A DNA stretch of 64,000 nt from Patescibacteria group bacterium. GTDB taxonomy: Bacteria; Patescibacteriota; Microgenomatia; UBA12405. The stretch lies in NCBI GenBank assembly GCA_018902845.1, contig JAHIPV010000013.1, positions 82,766 to 146,765 of the forward strand. The letters run 5' to 3'. Numbering within the stretch: position 1 is the stretch's first letter; every line of letters starts with the position of its first letter. The translations under genes were made by a program, and so were the position numbers. The notes below the pieces were generated by a model. The model was given only the letters and a program-made list of their open reading frames with translations, ran no database searches and was not told the DNA's origin. Of the stretch, positions 4,765-52,588 are shown piece after piece.

Positions 4765-4926
4765 ATGGCAATGATAACTTTTTATTGTGTAAAATGTCGT
4801 GCAAAAAAAGACGTAGATGAAGAAAAGTGTGAAAAGGTGACGCTTAAAAACGGCAGACCAGCGGCAAAAACCGTTTGTCCAGACTGTGGCACAGGTATGT
4901 TCAAGATTCTACCCAAAAGCGCATAA
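4765..4926 (+). CDS. Small zinc-ribbon protein, 53 aa (below the ORF-track length cutoff)
   Basis: MAMITFYCVKCRAKKDVDEEKCEKVTLKNGRPAAKTVCPDCGTGMFKILPKSA contains two CxxC pairs. A near-perfect Shine-Dalgarno aaaggaggtg sits 8 bp upstream. A terminator hairpin follows. Confidence 0.5.
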   Translation: MAMITFYCVKCRAKKDVDEEKCEKVTLKNGRPAAKTVCPDCGTGMFKILPKSA

Positions 4927-4940
4927 AATATTTTAAATTA

Positions 4941-4968
4941 ACCCCGGCTTTTAATAGACGGGGTTAAT
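4941..4968 (+). terminator. Rho-independent terminator-like hairpin
   Basis: aaccccggc-ttttaatag-acggggtt, GC stem, downstream of the small CDS. Confidence 0.4.
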
Positions 4969-4990
4969 TTGTTATTGTATAATCCTTCTT

Positions 4991-5198
4991 AAGAATAAAA
5001 GGATCAACCCCGCCACGGCGGGGAGGAAAGTCCGGACCACAAAAGGCAAAAAAAGCTCTGCTACAGAGACGAGAAATGTGAAACGAGTATCTTTTTTGTG
5101 GAAATCTCAAAAATGAACGTTAATATCTAGCCTTTGAGAGTTCAAGGTAGAGAGAGTAGATAGATGATCCATAAACAAAATCCGGCTTATTTATTCTT
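4991..5198 (+). ncRNA. rnpB: RNase P RNA (rnpB), unusually small (~208 nt) with a reduced specificity domain
   Basis: P1 aagaataaa (4991-4999) pairs perfectly with tttattctt (5190-5198). P2 ggatc pairs with gatcc (5166-5170). P3 hairpin ccccgc-cacg-gcgggg. CR-I motif GGAGGAAAGTCCGGAC at 5024-5039. CR-V-like ACAAAATCCGGCTTAT at 5175-5190. The 3' part tagatagatgatcc...aaatccggcttat parallels E. coli M1 RNA CTAGATGAATGAC...AACCCGGCTTAT. Confidence 0.55.
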
Positions 5199-5208
5199 TT
5201 GTAAAATT

Positions 5209-6201
5209 TTATTTCTTTTCTTTCCAAAAAACCTTTATCAGAGTTTCAGTGGTCAAATAAGCCGGTATTGCCAAAACCGCCCCTGATATTCCCGCTAGCT
5301 TTGCTCCAATTGCTAATAAAAATATCGTTACCAAAGGATTCAGTCCTACCGCCGTTTTCATCACTTTTGGCACAATAAAATTATTTTCAATTTGTTGTAC
5401 AGTTATTCCCCAAACCAAAGACAATAAACCCAAAACAGGGGACATGGAAAAACCTATTATCATCGCCACTATAGTCGCAACGGTTGGTCCAATATTTGGA
5501 ACCAATTCCAATATTCCTGCCAAAATAGCCAATGGTACGGCAAATTGCAAACCAAGAATCAAATAACCAACATAAGATAACAATCCGACCGCCAGCATGA
5601 GAATCAGTTCTGCGTTAACCCACGAACCCAGTCTTTTTTCCAAGTGTTCCATTATTTTCATCGTTTTCTGGCTTCCTTTTTTGCCAAAAAGGTCAAGACT
5701 GTATTTTTTGAATTTCTTTCTTTCTACCAAAAGATAAAAAGTTATCATCAAAACCAAAAAACCGGAAAAAAGGTTAGAAAAAACTGACAAGGTGGCTTTG
5801 GTAATATTGGCCGGCAAATTTTCTAATATTTTTAACTGAGAAGAGATATCCATTGCCGACAAACCAAAAAAGTTTATTTCTTCTATTAACCTCGGAAAAG
5901 AATTAATCAGTCCTGTTGTTTGTTCTATTAATACCGGAATCACTCCGGCAATTCCAAAAGACAAAAAAGTTAACATGATAATATACAAAAAAACTATCGC
6001 CACTCCTCTTGGTATCTTAAATTTTTCTAATCTCTCCACGGTTGGATTAAGAGATTCCATCAGAATAAAACAGATAAAAAACAGTACTAGCAATTCTCTG
6101 ATTTTCCACACCAACAGCAAAGAACCCAAAAAGATAACAGCAAATATTATTGTTTTGTGTGAAATTTCAATTTTATGTACTTGTTTTTCTTCTTTTTTCA
6201 T
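5209..6201 (-). CDS. AI-2E family transporter (PerM/UPF0118)
   Basis: 330 aa multi-TM protein. LGSWVNAELILMLAVGLLSYVGYLILGLQFAVPLAILAGILELVPNIGP is typical of PF01594. Confidence 0.7.
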   Translation of the reverse strand: MKKEEKQVHKIEISHKTIIFAVIFLGSLLLVWKIRELLVLFFICFILMESLNPTVERLEKFKIPRGVAIVFLYIIMLTFLSFGIAGVIPVLIEQTTGLINSFPRLIEEINFFGLSAMDISSQLKILENLPANITKATLSVFSNLFSGFLVLMITFYLLVERKKFKKYSLDLFGKKGSQKTMKIMEHLEKRLGSWVNAELILMLAVGLLSYVGYLILGLQFAVPLAILAGILELVPNIGPTVATIVAMIIGFSMSPVLGLLSLVWGITVQQIENNFIVPKVMKTAVGLNPLVTIFLLAIGAKLAGISGAVLAIPAYLTTETLIKVFWKEKK

Positions 6202-6224: not shown

Positions 6225-6420
6225 ACTCGTCATCCCGAACTTGCCCCCCCGTCATCCTGAGTGAGTTTTACGACCGAAGGATCCCCTCGGAACCAAATCT
6301 TGCCTTTGAGATTCTTCGCTCCCGCTCAGAATGACGCCCCACCCGTCATCCTGACCCCCCGTCATCCTGAGCTTGCCGAAGGATCCCCTAGCCATTTTTT
6401 CACCATTTTTTCAATCTCTT
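6225..6420. repeat. Cluster of family A repeats (GTCATCCTGAG...GAAGGATC), several units in both orientations
   Basis: cgtcatcccgaacttg, cgtcatcctgagtgagttttacgaccgaaggatcccctcgg, ctcagaatgacg (inverted), cgtcatcctgaccccccgtcatcctgagcttgccgaaggatcccc. The last unit encodes the miaA C-terminus. Confidence 0.7.
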
Positions 6421-7555
6421 TTTTATATTCTTTTTTTCCTATATCAAAAATTATTGCTTCCTTTCTTTTTTTAAACCACACCCGCTGTCTTTTTGCATAT
6501 CTATGTTCATCCATTCTCCACCTCTCAATAGCGTCACCCCGAGCACACGCCGTCATCCTGAGTCTGTCGAAGGATCCCATCGGAATTTTACCCACCTTTT
6601 CGAAATACTCTTCAAACTCTTTATACGCCAGCGTATTCATCCCCGGATCACTCCACTTATATTTTTTCAGCAACCCCTCAATTTCACCCAACAGTCCCTG
6701 TTTTAATCTTTTTTTAATTCTTTTATCAATTCTTTTTTTAATTAATTCTCTATTTCCTGTTAGTGACACATGCAAACAATCAAAATCAATGTCACCCCGC
6801 CCTGGCGGGGTCTCCGTCGGAATCTTACTCAACCTAATCTCTATCTTTCTTATCAATCTATGTCTATTATTTTTTTCTGAATTGTTTAATTTATCAAAAC
6901 TCTTTTTATCCAAAACCTTATAAACATTTCTAATCAGACCTGTAGAACACTTGTTCAATATCAATCTTAATAACTTATTCGGCTTTATCAAAAAATTCTT
7001 TTTCATATTCAAAATCGCATCAATATAAAATCCCGTACCTCCCACCACGATTGGTAGCTTTCCTTTTCCATAAATTTCCTCAACAGCTACTTCAAAACAC
7101 CCCAACCAATCCACTACGCTAAATTCTTTATCCGGTTCTACCACATCCAGCAGCCAAACCGGCATACTATCAATTTCATAATATCCAACATCAAACGCGT
7201 CATTCCGACCGAAGCGGAGGAATCTCTGAACTCGTTTCAGTATTCCAACATCAAACGCGTCATTCCGACCGAAGCGGAGGAATCTCTGAACTCGTTTCAG
7301 TATTCCAACATCAAAATTAAAAAGTTTGGAAATTGTGATTTGTGATTTGTGATTTACCGGCAGGTCTTTGCCGGTTCCTATATCCATTCCCTTATAAATT
7401 TGCCTAGAATCAGCCGAAATCAATTCCCCGTTAAACTTTTTGGCCAATTTCACCGCCAAACCTGTTTTTCCGCTGGCCGTCACTCCAGAAATAATTAAAA
7501 GCCTTTGTTTTACCATGTAAGTTTCACACATTAAATCTAAACTCAACCACATCAT
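6362..7555 (-). CDS. miaA: tRNA dimethylallyltransferase MiaA with in-frame repeat-derived insertions
   Basis: ISGVTASGKTGLAVKLAKKFNGELISADSRQIYKGMDIGTGK is the MiaA P-loop N-terminus. At 397 aa it is about 80 aa longer than typical MiaA. The extra segments map to repeat copies: the tandem 60-bp unit at 7181-7300, family A at 6536-6600, a caccccgccctggcgggg unit at 6781-6830, and family A at 6362-6400. Confidence 0.75.
   Translation of the reverse strand: MMWLSLDLMCETYMVKQRLLIISGVTASGKTGLAVKLAKKFNGELISADSRQIYKGMDIGTGKDLPVNHKSQITISKLFNFDVGILKRVQRFLRFGRNDAFDVGILKRVQRFLRFGRNDAFDVGYYEIDSMPVWLLDVVEPDKEFSVVDWLGCFEVAVEEIYGKGKLPIVVGGTGFYIDAILNMKKNFLIKPNKLLRLILNKCSTGLIRNVYKVLDKKSFDKLNNSEKNNRHRLIRKIEIRLSKIPTETPPGRGDIDFDCLHVSLTGNRELIKKRIDKRIKKRLKQGLLGEIEGLLKKYKWSDPGMNTLAYKEFEEYFEKVGKIPMGSFDRLRMTACARGDAIERWRMDEHRYAKRQRVWFKKRKEAIIFDIGKKEYKKEIEKMVKKWLGDPSASSG
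7181..7300. repeat. Perfect 60-bp tandem duplication (2 copies plus a partial third) of a GTCATTCCGAC...GAACTCGTTTCAG element inside miaA
   Basis: 7201-7260 is identical to 7261-7320. It translates in-frame to FDVGILKRVQRFLRFGRNDA twice. Related elements occur at 58591-58640, 43207-43262 and 15641-15670. Confidence 0.85.
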
Positions 7556-14594: not shown

Positions 14595-14921
14595 ATGAAG
14601 ACGGGTGCTTTTTTTATGTATAATTTACTTGTGTTATCAAAAAAAATTCTCAAACAAGTCAAAGACATAATTTTCCCACTTGTTGACAACCAAACAAAAG
14701 TTTTTATCTTTGGCTCCAGAGCCAACAATAAGGCCAGAAAATTTAGCGATATTGACATTGGTCTAGAAGCAGACAATCAAATTAATTTTGAAACCATCGG
14801 TCAAATCAAACAGGCCTTTGAAGAATCCGACCTGCCTTACAATGTAGATATAGTTGAATTTTCCAAACTACCAAAAAAATTTAAAAAAGTAGCTCAAAAA
14901 AACATTATTTATTTAAATTAA
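14595..14921 (+). CDS. Minimal nucleotidyltransferase (MNT, HI0073-like), antitoxin of an MNT/HEPN pair
   Basis: FIFGSRANNKARKFSDIDIGL fits the GS-x9-13-DxD NTase motif. The true start is probably M at 14616. Confidence 0.6.
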   Translation: MKTGAFFMYNLLVLSKKILKQVKDIIFPLVDNQTKVFIFGSRANNKARKFSDIDIGLEADNQINFETIGQIKQAFEESDLPYNVDIVEFSKLPKKFKKVAQKNIIYLN

Positions 14922-14929
14922 AAACAAAA

Positions 14930-15313
14930 GTGACAAAAAAACAATCATTACTGACTGATTTAAAAAAAACCACCGCCAGTCTAGAAAAAGTTTTGAAATT
15001 ACCGGAAAGCGAAATCAATCGCGATGCCAGTATCCAAAGGTTCGAATTTACCTTTGAATTAAGTTGGAAACTAATGCAGGAATTAGTGGCAGATGTCAAA
15101 AAAGGCGCTTACGGACCAAGAACTGTCATCAGAGAAGCGGCCAATATAGAGCTAATAAGTAATCCCAAAAAATGGCTCTATTTTTTGGACAAAAGAAATT
15201 TAACGGTACACACTTACAACGAAGCCATGGCAAAAGAAATGTATCAGGTGGCCAAAGAATTTATCTCTCATGTAAAAAATCTAACAAAACAAGTCAAAGA
15301 ATATCTATCTTAA
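14930..15313 (+). CDS. HI0074-family nucleotidyltransferase substrate-binding protein (HEPN)
   Basis: RDASIQRFEFTFELSWKLMQ is characteristic of PF08780. It immediately follows the MNT gene. Confidence 0.6.
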   Translation: MTKKQSLLTDLKKTTASLEKVLKLPESEINRDASIQRFEFTFELSWKLMQELVADVKKGAYGPRTVIREAANIELISNPKKWLYFLDKRNLTVHTYNEAMAKEMYQVAKEFISHVKNLTKQVKEYLS

Positions 15314-18091: not shown

Positions 18092-20290
18092 ATGAATCAA
18101 AAAACAATTTTACAAATTCAAGGCATGCACTGTGCCTCGTGTGCAACCACTATAGAAAATGCTCTCAAAAAGGAAAAGGCCATCATTTCAGCCAATATTA
18201 ATTTTGCTTCGGAAAAAGCCAATTTAGAGTTTGACTCTAAAAAAATCAAAATCAAGCAAATCAAAAAAATTATTCAAAAATTAGGCTATCAAACTAATCA
18301 GCAAAAAACTCAAGGAATAAAACAATTAAAAAAACGACTTATTTTTTCCTCTCTATTTGCCTTGCCACTCATTTATATTGTTATGGGCCAAATGCTTGGT
18401 CTGCCAATACCGCCATTTATTAAAGAATCAAATATTTTGATTCAATTTGTTTTAGCCACAATTGTAATTTTGGCTTGTTTTAATCTCTGGATCTCTGGAT
18501 TTAAGAATTTAATACAGCTAAGGCCCAATATGGATTCTCTAATTTTTATTGGCACGGCCACCGCTTATTTTTACAGCCTTGCTCTGTCTGTTTCTTTTTG
18601 GTTGCAAATTCAAAAATCACCTCCTCATTTATATTATGAAAGCACTGTCTTTATTCTTGTTTTTATTTCACTTGGCAAATATCTGGAAACAATTACAAAA
18701 GGAAAGACCGGTCAAGCCATAAAAAAATTAATTGGGCTTCAGCCAAAAGAAGCAACGATTATCAAAAACGGTCAGGAAATGAAAATTCCCATTTCCGAAG
18801 TAAAAGTTGGGGATATTGTTTTGGTAAAACCCGGCCAAAAAATTCCGGTCGATGGAATCGTAATTGATGGATATTCAGGCGTGGACGAAAAAGCAATAAC
18901 CGGTGAGAGCCTTCCGGTTGAAAAAAGAAAAGGGGACAGAGTTATTGGCGCCACAATTAACAAAACTGGTGTTTTAAGGTTTAAAGCAACAAAAGTTGGA
19001 AAAGATACCATGTTGGCTCAAATTATAAAAACAGTGGAAGAAGCAATCGGTTCAAAAGCGCCGATTCAACTTCTGGCTGACAGAGTTTCTTTTTATTTTG
19101 TTCCCGCAGTAATCGCTATGGCCATTTTTGCTTTTATTATCTGGATTATTTTAGGCCAATCTCTTGCTTTTGCCTTGACTGTTTTTGTAGCTGTTCTTAT
19201 TATTGCCTGTCCTTGCGCCTTAGGATTGGCAACTCCCACAGCCGTCATGATGGGCACAGGGCTGGCGGCTCAACATGGCATTTTAATTAAAACCAGCAAA
19301 GCCTTAGAGACGGCCCAAAAAGTAAACATAATTATTTTTGATAAAACAGGCACTTTAACCAAAGGCGAACCAAAAGTGACAAACATCCTAAGCCTATTAA
19401 AGTCCATGTCTCAAAAGCAAGTTTTGCAGATAGCCGCTTCAATAGAAAAAAACTCTCAACATCCTCTTGCTCAAGCTATTGTTCAAAAAGCCAAATTAGA
19501 AAACCTTAGTTTTTTAAACATCCAAAATTTTGAAGAAATACCAGGCAAAGGTGTTATAGCTCAATCCAAAGGAATCAAGCTTTTATTGGGAACAAGAAAG
19601 TTAATGGGCCAAAATAATATCAATACGAATTCTATCGAGAAACAATTGGCCAAATTAGAAAATCAAGGCAAAACAGCCATGATTTTGGCTCAAGCTAAAA
19701 ATATTATTGGAATAATTGCCGTAGCCGATACTTTAAAAAAGTATTCCAAAGAAGCGGTGGCCATGTTGCACAAATTGGGCAAAAAAGTCGCCATAATTAC
19801 GGGGGATAACAAAAGAGTAGGACAAGCCATTGCCAAACAAGTCAATATAGACAAAATTTTAGCCCAAGTTTTACCCCGGCAAAAATCAGAAGAAATCAAA
19901 AAATTACAAAAAGAAGGAAATGTTGTGGCCATGGTGGGCGATGGCATAAACGACGCTCCGGCTTTGGCTCAAGCTGATTTGGGTATTGCTTTAGGTTCCG
20001 GCACAGATGTGGCTATGGAAACCGGAGAAATAGTTTTAATTAAAGATGATCTAAGAGATGTGATAACAGCCATTGATTTAAGCAAATACACTTTAAACAA
20101 AATTAAACAAAATCTTTTCTGGGCTTTCTTTTACAATATTGTCAGTATTCCTATCGCCGCCGGTATTTTGTATCCTTTTACCGGCTGGCTTTTAAATCCG
20201 GCAATTGCCGCCGCAGCCATGGCACTTTCGTCAATTAGTGTTGTTTCAAATGCTCTTTTGATGAAAAGATACCAACCCAAACAACTCTAA
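18092..20290 (+). CDS. copA: Copper-translocating P1B-type ATPase
   Basis: HMA motif [18 protein letters not shown] motif ([12 protein letters not shown]), [17 protein letters not shown]. 732 aa. Confidence 0.9.
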
Positions 20291-29339: not shown

Positions 29340-29430
29340 CCCAAAATTTCAAAATGACGGATTCTTGGCGCTGGCCAACGGTGCGAGTTTGGCCTGCGCC
29401 ACTTTAAAAAATCAGAACATTCATGAATTG
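29340..29430. repeat. IR-B right copy, ending exactly at the 3' end of tRNA-Pro
   Basis: See IR-B left. The junction reads gaattgTCGG|ggatacaggattcgaacc. Confidence 0.9.
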
Positions 29431-29504
29431 TCGGGGATACAGGATTCGAACCTGCAACCTCACGCACCCCATGCGTGCGCGCTAGCCAATTGCGCCAATC
29501 CCCG
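29431..29504 (-). tRNA. tRNA-Pro (anticodon GGG)
   Basis: Minus-strand fold: acceptor CGGGGAT/ATCCCCG, D-stem GCGC/GCGC, anticodon stem CACGC/GCGTG with loop ATGGGGT (U33, anticodon GGG, G37), T-arm GCAGG-TTCGAAT-CCTGT, discriminator A. CCA is not encoded. Confidence 0.75.
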
Positions 29505-51672: not shown

Positions 51673-51984
51673 ATGAAAACAACAAATACTCAAATAATTA
51701 GCGCCACTCAAGTCCGAAACAACTTTTTTAATCTTTTAACACAAGGTTATTTAAAACAACAAACTTATATCATCAAAAAAGGCGGAATCCCCTTAATGCG
51801 TCTTGCCCCTCTTGACGATATTCATTTTGACTATATAGAAAAAGCCGAGAAAAAAATCAGCTTAACAAAAGAACAAACAGATCAATTGGCTCTTTTAGAG
51901 GAAATGGCCAAAATCAGAAAGACAATGAAAAAAACATCCGACTCCGCAATAATGCTTAGAAAAATGAGAAGACATGGCAAATAA
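51673..51984 (+). CDS. Phd/YefM-like antitoxin
   Basis: ISATQVRNNFFNLLTQ...IIKKGGIPLMRL matches the Phd/YefM N-terminal fold pattern. It overlaps the PIN gene by 11 bp. Confidence 0.45.
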   Translation: MKTTNTQIISATQVRNNFFNLLTQGYLKQQTYIIKKGGIPLMRLAPLDDIHFDYIEKAEKKISLTKEQTDQLALLEEMAKIRKTMKKTSDSAIMLRKMRRHGK

Positions 51985-52426
51985 GAAAAAATATTGTTTT
52001 GACGCTAATATCATTATCAAGCTGATCATCGAAGAAGATTATTCAGACAAAGCCAAGCATCTTTTTGTCCAAATTATCAAAGACGACAAAACAATCATCT
52101 CGCCTTCTTTTGCAAAAGTAGAAATATTTTCAGTGTTAAGAAAAAAAATATTTTTCAAAAAACTTAATCAAGCCAAGCTTGCAAAGAACCTACTAAAACT
52201 TCCGAAATTAAAAATCAATTACATATCCGAAAACTGGAAATTGCTGGATTTAGCCATGGAATTAGCCAAAAAATTAAAAGAAACAGTAGTTTATGATTGT
52301 ATCTATCTTGCCTTAGCCAAACAGCAAAAAGCAATTTTTGTCACAGCTGATAAAAAATTCTTTAACAAAGCCAAAACAGTCTACAAACCCTCCCTTCTTC
52401 TTTCCCAATACAAACCAACTAAATAG
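51974..52426 (+). CDS. vapC: PIN-domain (VapC-like) ribonuclease toxin
   Basis: CFDANIII carries the first acidic residue. DCIYLALA and VTADKKF carry the later acidic residues of the PIN fold. Confidence 0.6.
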   Translation: MANKKKYCFDANIIIKLIIEEDYSDKAKHLFVQIIKDDKTIISPSFAKVEIFSVLRKKIFFKKLNQAKLAKNLLKLPKLKINYISENWKLLDLAMELAKKLKETVVYDCIYLALAKQQKAIFVTADKKFFNKAKTVYKPSLLLSQYKPTK

Positions 52427-52484: not shown

Positions 52485-52556
52485 GCGCCCATAGTTCAAT
52501 GGATAGAACACTAGCCTCCGAAGCTAGCGATGAAGGTTCAACCCCCTCTGGGCGTA
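52485..52556 (+). tRNA. tRNA-Arg (anticodon CCG)
   Basis: Acceptor GCGCCCA/TGGGCGT with G-U at 1-72. D-arm GTTC-AATGGATA-GAAC. Anticodon stem CTAGC/GCTAG with loop CTCCGAA, anticodon CCG. T-arm GAAGG-TTCAACC-CCCTC with one mismatch. Discriminator A. It sits 33 bp upstream of argS. Confidence 0.6.
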
Positions 52557-52588
52557 CACATTTTTAGGTTATAATTCTAAATAGAAAA

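What the first reader, a model, noticed from the sequence alone, without database searches (positions are those of the whole stretch)
4991..5198. Candidate minimal RNase P RNA (~208 nt) lacking most of the specificity domain
The segment has a perfectly paired 9-bp P1 (4991-4999 with 5190-5198), P2, a GC-rich P3 hairpin, the universal CR-I GGAGGAAAGTCCGGAC, and the CR-V-like ACAAAATCCGGCTTAT. These are in the correct order and spacing relative to the 3' half of E. coli M1 RNA.
Only ~140 nt lie between the two P4 strands, against ~280 nt in type A RNAs. P7-P14 therefore appear mostly missing.
Comparable S-domain-less RNAs are known in Pyrobaculum (type T). A bacterial example would be noteworthy.
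No other rnpB candidate is visible in this window.
Basis: partly seen in the sequence, partly recalled or inferred. Interest (0 to 1): 0.6.

Follow-up and report, generated by a model that had tools for sequence, protein, structure and literature searches.

The report
Shrunken bacterial RNase P RNA gene
This is a real gene for the RNA enzyme that trims transfer-RNA precursors, from an ultra-small groundwater bacterium, and at 208 bases it is about a quarter shorter than the shortest bacterial version I could find reported, because it has lost six of the usual structural arms while keeping the catalytic core and the part that recognises the substrate.

Summary
It is the only RNase P hit in the window.

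The host is a bacterium of the Patescibacteria (CPR), close to Candidatus Shapirobacteria. The RNA is a reduced bacterial type A RNase P RNA. It keeps:
- P1-P7, P10/P11, P15-P17 and the P4 and P6 pseudoknots;
- all five conserved regions;
- the GGU motif of the P15/P16 loop.

It lacks P8, P9, P12, P13, P14 and P18.

The specificity domain is not absent as in Pyrobaculum type T. It is cut down to one stem (P5-P7/P10-P11) capped by the CR-II/CR-III module.

Two sets of homologues show strong compensatory covariation (96-97% of cells paired, against 49.6% or less in slid controls). Genes in the same conserved neighbourhood of related genomes form a graded series:
- 244-269 nt, with small P8, P9 and P12;
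- 236 nt, without P12;
- 206-208 nt, without P8, P9 or P12 (the window form).

One 2021 paper describes P12-less RNase P RNAs in the same bacterial class. I found no report of loss of P8/P9. I rate this a new variant of a known kind, of moderate interest.

The parts
4955..4983 (+). Promoter-like site: TAGACG, 17-nt spacer, TATAAT. The -10 box (4978-4983) ends 7 nt before the first base of P1.
   Evidence: L096 and L118 also have TATAAT followed by 7 nt and then P1. The number of such sites in this region is no higher than in shuffled sequence, so the conserved position is the argument, not the match itself.
4991..5198 (+). rnpB, the RNase P RNA gene, 208 nt
   Evidence: RF00373 at 90.7 bits against a gathering score of 84, over the full model. 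Own covariance model R1.
4991..4999 (+). P1, 5' strand. Pairs with 5190-5198.
   Evidence: All 9 pairs show compensatory changes in alignment A3.
5001..5005 (+). P2, 5' strand. Pairs with 5166-5170.
   Evidence: 5 of 5 pairs compensatory.
5008..5023 (+). P3 hairpin: 6 bp with a 4-nt loop
   Evidence: 6 of 6 pairs compensatory.
5022..5037 (+). CR-I. Includes the P4 5' strand (5028-5036) with bulged U5031. Pairs with 5181-5188.
   Evidence: P4 was not part of model R1, yet 99.5% of its cells are paired and the sixth and seventh pairs change from G-C to A-U.
5037..5040 (+). P5, 5' strand. Pairs with 5098-5101.
5042..5047 (+). P6 pseudoknot, 5' strand (AAAGGC). Pairs with 5130-5135 (GCCUUU) in the P17 loop.
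   Evidence: Covarying forms seen: AAAGGC/GCCUUU, CAAGAG/CUCUUG, GUCGAG/CUCGAC and GGAACC/GGUUCC.
5049..5055 (+). P7 continuing directly into P10, 5' strand. Pairs with 5091-5097. There is no P8 or P9 between them.
   Evidence: Relatives carry a 30-nt P8+P9 insert at this point.
5059..5062 (+). P11, 5' strand. Pairs with 5086-5089.
5063..5085 (+). CR-II (ACAGAGACGAG), a 4-nt AAAU linker where P12 normally sits, and CR-III (GUGAAACG). This is the presumed T-loop recognition module.
   Evidence: the 53-nt P12 segment of the model is reduced to 3 nt. Searches show the same.
5105..5153 (+). The P15-P16-P17 arm. P15 is 5105-5108 with 5150-5153. P16 is 5115-5118 with 5140-5143. P17 is 5126-5128 with 5137-5139. 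The GGU motif of the P15/P16 loop is at 5146-5148.
   Evidence: AGGU is invariant in all 11 genes from the conserved neighbourhood.
5157..5167 (+). CR-IV (UAGAUAGAUGA). Only 3 nt separate it from P15, so there is no P18.
5175..5190 (+). CR-V, including the P4 3' strand (5181-5188)
4765..4926 (+). Upstream neighbour: a 53-aa DUF5679 zinc-ribbon-like protein gene. It is followed by a hairpin at 4940-4965.
   Evidence: The neighbourhood is conserved.
5209..6201 (-). Convergent downstream neighbour: an AI-2E family transporter gene. Its stop codon lies 10 nt from the end of the RNA.

Best explanation
Window 4991-5198 is the functional rnpB gene of a Patescibacteria (CPR) bacterium close to Candidatus Shapirobacteria. 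It is a bacterial type A RNase P RNA reduced by evolution to 208 nt.

**What computation shows.**
- The catalytic domain is essentially complete: P1-P5, the P4 pseudoknot with its bulged U, P6, P15-P17 with the GGU motif, and CR-I, CR-IV and CR-V. Only P18 is gone.
- The specificity domain is one continuous stem: P5, then the P6 strand, then P7 running straight into P10, then P11. It is capped by a 23-nt loop made of CR-II, an AAAU linker and CR-III.
- P8, P9, P12, P13 and P14 are absent.

**What I infer.**
- With the RnpA protein and Mg2+, the RNA cleaves the 5' leader of precursor tRNAs at the P4 core.
- The CR-II/CR-III module still contacts the T and D loops of the tRNA elbow. The single coaxial stem acts as the spacer that the P7-P10 four-way junction and its braces provide in larger RNAs.
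- The lost helices (P8, P9, P13, P14, P18) form the known loop-helix braces L8-P4, L18-P8, L14-P8 and L9-P1. None of them touches the substrate. They can therefore be lost together, at a cost in stability rather than chemistry.
For: **Identity.**
- A full-length Rfam RNase P hit above the gathering score, with conserved CR-I to CR-V in order.

**Structure.**
- In 23 small bacterial homologues, 96.0% of cells are paired, against 49% or less when partners are slid. 42 of 51 pairs have changes on both sides, and no shuffle out of 500 reaches these values.
- In 11 genes from the same conserved neighbourhood, 97.2% of cells are paired and 36 of 60 pairs are compensatory. This includes P4 and P6, which were not in the search model.

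**Orthology.**
- The gene sits in a conserved neighbourhood: YchF, MiaA, AI-2E transporter, rnpB, DUF5679, DUF4446, DUF3048.
- In relatives, this position holds 236-269-nt RNase P RNAs.
- Their S-domains measure 107-117 nt (with P8, P9 and P12), 95 nt (no P12) and 65 nt (the window type).

**Selection.**
- Between the three species with the window type, the RNA is 84-90% identical. The flanking genes are 69-84% identical and the upstream spacer 54-77%.
- AGGU of the P15/P16 loop is invariant.

**Expression signal.**
- A TATAAT box lies 7 nt upstream of P1 in all three species.

**Not an assembly artefact.**
- The identical sequence is present in six assembly records.

**Host.**
- Bacterial genes (SecD, RNase Y, MiaA, YchF, HU).
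- NCBI labels the exact transporter protein 'Patescibacteria group bacterium', and the nearest named homologues are from Ca. Shapirobacteria.

**Precedent.**
- Complete circular Microgenomatia genomes carry only a P12-less RNase P RNA (PMC8172020).
Against: - There are no expression or activity data.
- The rest of the genome could not be searched, so the following are not excluded: rnpA being absent, a protein-only RNase P (HARP) being present, or a second rnpB existing elsewhere.
- No rnpA was found in the window. That is expected by chance and says little.
- The bacterial type A model RF00010 does not reach its gathering score of 100 bits here. At gathering thresholds only the archaeal model is listed.
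- Both tRNA genes in the window lack an encoded CCA. The conserved GGU motif is therefore not explained simply by pairing with genomically encoded 3' CCA.
- Energy-only folding does not recover the comparative structure beyond P1, P3, P4 and P5. The single-sequence z-score is only -2.05.
- How a straight P5-P7/P10-P11 stem places CR-II/CR-III at the tRNA elbow is inference. It has not been modelled.
Confidence: 0.88

Rival explanations
1. One reading: a type-T-like RNase P RNA that has lost the specificity domain and works by recognising the acceptor stem alone, as in Pyrobaculum.
For: The total length (208 nt) and the short distance between the P4 strands (144 nt) are in the type T range. The peripheral S-domain helices P8, P9, P12, P13 and P14 really are absent.
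Against: P10/P11, CR-II and CR-III are all present, invariant among the three species with the window type, and aligned with high posterior probability to the Rfam model. Their loss is what defines type T (PMC7191817). P7/P10 and P11 covary.
Confidence: 0.03
2. A decaying rnpB relic. The deletions mark a pseudogene, and tRNA 5' processing is done by another enzyme, such as a protein-only HARP, or by a second rnpB elsewhere in the genome.
For: Large deletions relative to orthologues. The genome outside the window could not be searched. Some bacteria carry both enzyme types (PMC9945441).
Against: The same architecture is kept in three species whose flanking genes have diverged to 69-84% nucleotide identity, while the RNA stays 84-90% identical. 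The differences fall in helices as compensatory pairs. All conserved regions, the bulged U of P4 and the GGU motif are intact. The promoter position is conserved. Complete Microgenomatia genomes were reported with only a P12-less form (PMC8172020).
Confidence: 0.05
3. An archaeal RNase P RNA acquired by horizontal transfer, since the best and only Rfam hit above threshold is the archaeal family.
For: RF00373 is the top model for the window and for all its Shapirobacteria-like orthologues.
Against: The gene sits at a conserved position in a bacterial gene neighbourhood across many Patescibacteria. It has the P15-P16-P17 arm, the P6 pseudoknot and the GGU loop of the ancestral type A form seen in bacteria. 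More distant Patescibacteria and Elusimicrobia homologues of the same alignment pass the bacterial model RF00010. The archaeal model wins simply because archaeal type A also lacks P13, P14 and P18.
Confidence: 0.02

Closest known systems
P12-less RNase P RNAs of CPR Microgenomatia (Lui et al. 2021, PLoS Comput Biol, PMC8172020)
   Same: Same bacterial class. Same losses of P12, P13, P14 and P18. The same difficulty for standard Rfam thresholds. L125 (Ca. Shapirobacteria RBG_13_44_7, 236 nt) in my set fits that description.
   Different: That paper does not report loss of P8 or P9, and it says its figured RNA lacks the UGG/GGU motif. The window RNA also lacks P8 and P9 and keeps GGU.
Bacterial type A RNase P RNA (Rfam RF00010; E. 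coli M1 RNA, T. maritima)
   Same: CR-I to CR-V, P1-P7, P10/P11, the P4 and P6 pseudoknots, P15-P17 with GGU in the internal loop, and a bacterial host.
   Different: About 170 nt shorter. No P8/P9 arms at the P7-P10 junction, and no P12, P13, P14 or P18. It scores below the RF00010 gathering score.
Mycoplasma fermentans RNase P RNA (type B, 276 nt; Siegel et al. 1996, as cited in PMC4779614 and PMC8172020)
   Same: A natural bacterial RNase P RNA without P12, from a reduced genome.
   Different: It is type B, keeps P8 and P9, and is 276 nt. The window RNA is type-A-derived and 68 nt shorter.
Archaeal type A RNase P RNA (Rfam RF00373)
   Same: Best-scoring model. It shares the absence of P13, P14 and P18, and a CR-III that leads straight back into P11.
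   Different: The archaeal RNAs keep P8, P9 and a long P12, and they work with four or five proteins. The host here is bacterial.
Pyrobaculum/Thermoproteaceae type T RNase P RNA (Lai et al. 2010, as described in PMC7191817)
   Same: Similar overall size (about 200 nt) and an extreme natural reduction.
   Different: Type T has lost P11, CR-II, CR-III and P12. The window RNA keeps P10/P11, CR-II and CR-III.
Engineered minimal bacterial RNase P RNAs (Min 1 and Micro P; from my own recollection of Waugh et al. 1989 and Siegel et al. 1996, not checked here)
   Same: Deleting peripheral helices leaves a catalytically competent core.
   Different: Those are laboratory constructs that need high salt. 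This is a natural gene maintained across species.

Membership tests
RNase P RNA (Rfam clan CL00002) | A covariance-model score at or above a family's gathering score, over the full model | tested here: met
   RF00373 at 90.7 bits against 84, model positions 1-288, window 4991-5198.
RNase P RNA (Rfam clan CL00002) | Conserved regions CR-I to CR-V in the canonical order | tested here: met
   CR-I 5022-5037, CR-II 5063-5073, CR-III 5078-5085, CR-IV 5157-5167 and CR-V 5175-5190.
RNase P RNA (Rfam clan CL00002) | Long-range P4 helix with a bulged U, crossing P2 | tested here: met
   5028-5036 (U5031 bulged) pairs with 5181-5188. Cells paired: 99.5% in A3 and 97.7% in A5, with G-C to A-U changes, although P4 was not in the search model.
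RNase P RNA (Rfam clan CL00002) | Endonucleolytic removal of the pre-tRNA 5' leader | not testable with these tools
   Needs a cleavage assay or a complementation experiment.
Bacterial type A RNase P RNA (RF00010) | P15-P16-P17 arm, a P6 pseudoknot to the P17 loop, and GGU in the P15/P16 internal loop | tested here: met
   GGU is at 5146-5148, and AGGU is invariant in the 11 genes from the conserved neighbourhood.
Bacterial type A RNase P RNA (RF00010) | P7-P8-P9-P10 four-way junction | tested here: not met
   Only 29 nt lie between GUCC of P4 and CR-II, and P7 runs directly into P10. Rfam shows a 28-nt model segment reduced to 0. Relatives have a 30-nt P8+P9 insert there.
Bacterial type A RNase P RNA (RF00010) | P12, P13/P14 and P18 | tested here: not met
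   P12 is replaced by AAAU. CR-III leads straight into the P11 3' strand, so there is no P13 or P14. Only 3 nt lie between P15 and CR-IV, so there is no P18.
Bacterial type A RNase P RNA (RF00010) | Score at or above the RF00010 gathering score (100 bits) | tested here: not met
   At gathering thresholds only RF00373 is listed for the window, and no clan match is reported as left out. The exact RF00010 score was not shown.
Bacterial type A RNase P RNA (RF00010) | Bacterial host with a single protein subunit, RnpA | tested here: inconclusive
   The host is bacterial.
Archaeal type A RNase P RNA (RF00373) | Archaeal host with the Pop5, Rpp30, Rpp21 and Rpp29 (and L7Ae) proteins, and P8, P9 and P12 present | tested here: not met
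   The host genes are bacterial. P8, P9 and P12 are absent. The score passes the threshold only because both lack P13, P14 and P18.
Type T RNase P RNA (Thermoproteaceae) | Loss of P11, J11/12 and J12/11 including CR-II and CR-III | tested here: not met
   CR-II, CR-III and P10/P11 are present and conserved. The definition is from PMC7191817.
CPR P12-less RNase P RNA (Lui et al. 2021) | Microgenomatia host; P12, P13, P14 and P18 missing | tested here: met
   Whether their RNAs also lack P8 and P9 could not be checked, because no sequences are in the text or supplements that are held.

The most novel reading that the evidence does not exclude
The window form (206-208 nt) is the smallest natural bacterial RNase P RNA described so far. 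It is also the first RNase P RNA reported to keep the CR-II/CR-III substrate-recognition module while lacking both the P8 and P9 arms of the P7-P10 junction and P12. On this reading, a single helix capped by the CR-II/CR-III module is a sufficient specificity domain in vivo with (presumably) one small protein. The stepwise series found in Shapirobacteria-like genomes (P8, P9 and P12 present; then P12 lost; then P8 and P9 lost) would be a natural deletion experiment. The same P8/P9-less design, with P12 kept, also occurs in other Patescibacteria and in Elusimicrobia MAGs.
Probability: 0.4. Interest if true: 0.7.

Novelty: new variant of a known kind. Interest (0 to 1): 0.55.

Why it matters
RNase P RNA is one of the few universal ribozymes, and its natural size limits show which parts are truly needed.

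- The shortest bacterial example cited in the literature I could search is 276 nt (M. fermentans; PMC4779614).
- A 2026 survey of 635 bacterial and archaeal RNase P RNAs treats P9 as fully conserved (PMC12974513).
- A conserved, covarying 208-nt bacterial gene without P8, P9, P12, P13, P14 or P18 shows that all the bracing helices are dispensable together.
- The graded series in closely related genomes offers ready-made constructs for testing what each helix contributes.

There is also a practical point. Standard annotation either labels these genes 'archaeal RNase P' in a bacterial genome or misses them. This affects genome-completeness checks for CPR genomes.

Tried and rejected
1. **Metagenome scan for more RNAs without P12.** The pattern with a 1-12 nt gap between CR-II and CR-III found only two contigs. 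One of them duplicates L096. The window type is therefore rare in that collection, and covariation within the type rests on three species.
2. **Energy-only folding.** The single-sequence fold (z = -2.05) and RNAalifold on three sequences recover P1, P3, P4 and P5 but not the rest. This is expected for a pseudoknotted RNA with structured loops, so I did not use them as evidence against the comparative model.
3. **A CUCUG/CAGAG hairpin (5056-5068).**
   - It appears in the minimum-energy fold and as a 'terminator' on the minus strand.
   - I rejected it because the complementarity is absent in orthologues that read CAAUGCUACAGAG.
4. **Search for rnpA.** Nothing turned up in the window or the loci. 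This is uninformative about the genome as a whole.
5. **The PIN-domain protein at 51974-52426 as a possible HARP.** I rejected this. It is 150 aa, matches the general PIN family PF01850 (VapC-like, my reading), and has a small overlapping upstream ORF, so it looks like a VapBC pair.
6. **DUF5679 as an RNase P accessory protein.**
   - Its gene lies next to rnpB in several lineages.
   - The whole seven-gene neighbourhood is inherited together.
   - A hairpin and a promoter-like site separate the two genes.
   - I therefore read the adjacency as inherited gene order only.
7. **A weak R1 hit at window 18313-18350.** It scores 21.9 bits with 21% GC and is a spurious AT-rich match.
8. **Sequences from Lui et al. 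2021.** They are not in the text or supplements that are held.

Full report
**1.

- A scan of the whole window against Rfam 15 at gathering thresholds gives three hits: two tRNAs, and RNaseP_arch (RF00373) at 4991-5198 on the plus strand.
- The RNase P hit scores 90.7 bits (gathering score 84), E = 8e-24, and covers model positions 1-288 (repeated locally).
- The 9-bp P1, P2, the GC-rich P3 hairpin, CR-I (GGAGGAAAGUCCGGAC, 5022-5037) and CR-V (ACAAAAUCCGGCUUAU, 5175-5190) are all present.
- The two P4 strands are 144 nt apart.
- No other RNase P match reaches a gathering score in the 64 kb.

**2. Host**

- The window encodes SecD, RNase Y, MiaA, YchF and HU. Its GC content is about 36-42%. The host is a bacterium.
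- The flanking AI-2E transporter protein occurs with identical sequence in four NCBI MAG assemblies, one ENA assembly and one JGI metagenome.
- NCBI names its source 'Patescibacteria group bacterium'. The closest named homologues (57-63% identity) are from Candidatus Shapirobacteria.
- The 208-nt RNA sequence is identical in all six of those records, so it is not an assembly artefact.

**3. Anatomy**

I combined the Rfam alignment with pairing checked by hand.

*Retained:*
- P1: 4991-4999 with 5190-5198.
- P2: 5001-5005 with 5166-5170.
- P3: 5008-5023.
- P4: 5028-5036, with U5031 bulged, paired to 5181-5188.
- P5: 5037-5040 with 5098-5101.
- P6 pseudoknot: AAAGGC at 5042-5047 with GCCUUU at 5130-5135.
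- P7 running without interruption into P10: 5049-5055 with 5091-5097.
- P11: 5059-5062 with 5086-5089.
- A 23-nt cap of CR-II (ACAGAGACGAG), AAAU and CR-III (GUGAAACG): 5063-5085.
- P15, P16 and P17: within 5105-5153.
- GGU at 5146-5148, in the 3' side of the P15/P16 internal loop. From my memory of the M1 sequence, this is where E. coli has its CCA-binding GGU.
- CR-IV: 5157-5167.

*Absent:*
- P8 and P9. A 28-nt segment of the model is reduced to 0. Only 29 nt lie between GUCC of P4 and CR-II, and these are fully used by P5, P6, P7, P10 and P11.
- P12. A 53-nt segment of the model is reduced to 3 nt.
- P13 and P14.
- P18. Only 3 nt separate P15 from CR-IV.

The S-domain is therefore reduced to one stem with the CR-II/CR-III cap. 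It is not deleted.

**4. Homologues and covariation**

*Gathering the sequences:*
- I ran a pattern scan of one genome per GTDB species. The pattern required CR-I, then a short gap, then CR-II, then a short gap, then CR-III. It gave 116 loci.
- Filtering by the distance from CR-I to CR-V picked out small RNase P RNAs.
- The closest is L096 (Ca. Shapirobacteria B61_G2), which has identical spacing.
- A metagenome scan added L118.
- From these three sequences I built covariance model R1 with the hand-derived nested structure.

*Results on 23 small bacterial RNase P RNAs found with R1:*
- 96.0% of the 1155 cells form standard pairs. Shuffles average 65.6%, and slid partners reach 49% or less.
- 42 of 51 pairs have changes on both sides.
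- No shuffle out of 500 reaches the observed values.
- P4 was not in the model, yet 99.5% of its cells are paired, with G-C to A-U changes.
- P6 covaries clearly. Forms seen include AAAGGC/GCCUUU, GAAGGC/GCCUUC, CAAGAG/CUCUUG, GUCGAG/CUCGAC and GGAACC/GGUUCC.

*Caveat:* the alignment is fitted to the model for the nested helices, which favours that structure. P4 and P6 are free of this bias.

**5. Orthology and a graded series**

- The neighbourhood YchF, MiaA, AI-2E transporter, rnpB, DUF5679, DUF4446, DUF3048 is conserved in L096 and L118.
- It is also conserved in eight further genomes, which I reached through homologues of the transporter.
- R1 finds an RNase P RNA at the same position in every one.
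- Lengths and S-domain anatomy form three steps:

| Loci | RNA length | S-domain length | Anatomy |
|---|---|---|---|
| L126-L132 | 244-269 nt | 107-117 nt | small P8, P9 with a GNRA loop, short P12 |
| L125 (Ca. Shapirobacteria RBG_13_44_7) | 236 nt | 95 nt | P8 and P9 kept; P12 replaced by AAAU |
| window, L118, L096 | 206-208 nt | 65 nt | no P8, P9 or P12 |

- L125 and the window type share the junction GAGAAAU(A/G)UGAAACGAGUAUC. This suggests that P12 was lost first and P8/P9 later.
- On these 11 genes from the same neighbourhood, 97.2% of cells are paired and 36 of 60 pairs are compensatory, P4 and P6 included.
- Between the three species with the window type, the RNA is 84-90% identical. 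The flanking genes are 69-84% identical and the upstream spacer 54-77%. This is the signature of purifying selection on the RNA.
- A TATAAT box lies 7 nt upstream of P1 in all three.

**6. Why the archaeal model wins**

- All the Shapirobacteria-like orthologues score best on RF00373, at 96-122 bits.
- More distant small homologues from other Patescibacteria either just pass the bacterial model RF00010 (104-109 bits) or pass no RNase P model.
- The Elusimicrobia ones pass RF00010 comfortably, at 137-157 bits.
- The archaeal model fits better because archaeal type A also lacks P13, P14 and P18.
- The conserved bacterial gene neighbourhood, and the P15-P17/P6/GGU arm of the ancestral type A form seen in bacteria, argue against horizontal transfer.

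**7. Mechanism**

*Shown by computation:* the catalytic core elements and the substrate-recognition elements are all present, conserved and structurally supported.

*Inferred from established knowledge of bacterial RNase P:*
- The RNA, with RnpA and Mg2+, cleaves pre-tRNA leaders at the P4 core.
- CR-II/CR-III contact the tRNA T and D loops.
- The missing helices are the partners of the loop-helix braces L8-P4, L18-P8 and L14-P8 (PMC8457005, PMC12974513) and L9-P1. These stabilise the fold without touching the substrate.
- Losing them as a set should cost stability rather than chemistry.

*Unresolved:*
- How the straight P5-P7/P10-P11 stem positions the recognition module has not been modelled.
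- The GGU motif is invariant, although both tRNA genes in the window lack an encoded CCA.

**8. Comparison with what is known**

- **Lui et al. 2021 (PMC8172020).**
  - They reported diverged RNase P RNAs in CPR.
  - Two Microgenomatia genomes lacked P12, P13, P14 and P18.
  - They called P12 loss 'highly unusual'. They did not mention loss of P8 or P9.
- **Shortest bacterial RNase P RNA.** The shortest cited in the searchable literature is 276 nt, from M. fermentans (PMC4779614).
- **The 2026 survey (PMC12974513).**
  - It covers 298 archaeal and 337 bacterial RNase P RNAs.
  - It lists P9 among the fully conserved helices.
  - It reports no such bacterial deletion.
- **Further searches.** Full-text searches for RNase P RNA together with CPR, Patescibacteria, Elusimicrobia or loss of P8/P9 found nothing else.
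- **Type T.** It is defined by loss of P11, CR-II and CR-III (PMC7191817), and that does not apply here.

**9. Verdict**

- This is a genuine, most likely functional, rnpB gene: a strongly reduced bacterial type A RNase P RNA.
- Against the published CPR precedent it is a further step, with P8 and P9 also lost. This gives the smallest bacterial form I could find documented.
- I rate it a new variant of a known kind, with interest 0.55.
- The main uncertainties are the lack of expression or activity data, the lack of access to the rest of the genome (rnpA, HARP, a second rnpB), and the possibility that the Lui et al. RNAs are already this form.

Noticed in passing
L001, L010, L029, L054, L056, L064, L091, L107 (coordinates): Elusimicrobia MAGs carry RNase P RNAs of about 230-245 nt. 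Like the window RNA they have only about 30 nt between P4 and CR-II, so they lack P8 and P9, and they also lack P13, P14 and P18. They keep a short P12. The four I scanned (L064, L091, L010, L029) pass RF00010 at 137-157 bits. The P8/P9-less design is therefore not confined to Patescibacteria.
   Followed up: partly
L037:5297-5568 (-), compared with L026:2050-2274 and L114:1711-1937: L037 has the identical P12-less junction ACAGAGACGAGAAAUGUGAAACG. Its close relatives L026 and L114 keep a P12 hairpin. This points to an independent, convergent loss of P12 that ends at the same sequence.
   Followed up: partly
L088, L095, L099, L015, L032, L067, L094 and others: DPANN archaea, mostly labelled Candidatus Iainarchaeum, have very small RNase P RNAs. 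The distance from CR-I to CR-V is 134-220 nt, with no P15-P17 arm. In L095 and L094 P12 is almost absent (9-nt gap). Some are about 185-200 nt in total.
   Followed up: no
L021, L025, L026, L037, L072, L093, L114: MAGs labelled 'uncultured Gammaproteobacteria' or 'uncultured Pseudomonadales' carry Patescibacteria-type small RNase P RNAs. L026, L037 and L114 also share the full YchF, MiaA, AI-2E, rnpB, DUF5679, DUF4446, DUF3048 neighbourhood at 40-55% protein identity over full-length matches. The taxonomic labels look wrong.
   Followed up: partly
window 4765-4926 (+), and the same position in L096, L118, L125-L132, L026, L037, L114: A 53-58-aa DUF5679 protein with two CxxC pairs (zinc-ribbon-like) is encoded immediately upstream of rnpB, on the same strand, across all these genomes. 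The whole neighbourhood is conserved, so this may be gene order only. Still, a small zinc-ribbon protein next to a reduced RNase P RNA is a lead worth testing.
   Followed up: partly
window 29430-29504 (-) and 52485-52557 (+): Neither tRNA gene (Pro-GGG, Arg-CCG) encodes the 3' CCA. The bases after the discriminator are CAA and CAC. The RNase P RNA nevertheless keeps the CCA-binding GGU motif.
   Followed up: yes
window 1-64000: GC skew on the plus strand is negative in every 4-kb bin, from -0.03 to -0.26, whichever way the genes point. A paper on a complete Microgenomates genome reports an unusual composition disparity between the two strands (PMC7143001; title and abstract only).
   Followed up: no
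window 51673-52426 (+): A 150-aa PIN-domain protein (PF01850) with a small overlapping upstream ORF looks like a VapBC toxin-antitoxin pair. It lies directly upstream of tRNA-Arg(CCG).
   Followed up: no
window 14595-15313 (+): Adjacent genes for a minimal nucleotidyltransferase (Polbeta/NTP_transf_2, 108 aa) and an NTase_sub_bind/HepT-like protein (127 aa). This looks like an MNT-HepT type toxin-antitoxin pair.
   Followed up: no
window 6362-7555 (-): The MiaA (IPP transferase) ORF is 397 aa as listed. In the same genome it is called at 376-384 aa, and in relatives at about 300-332 aa. The window protein may have an N-terminal extension or an insert, or its start may be miscalled.
   Followed up: no
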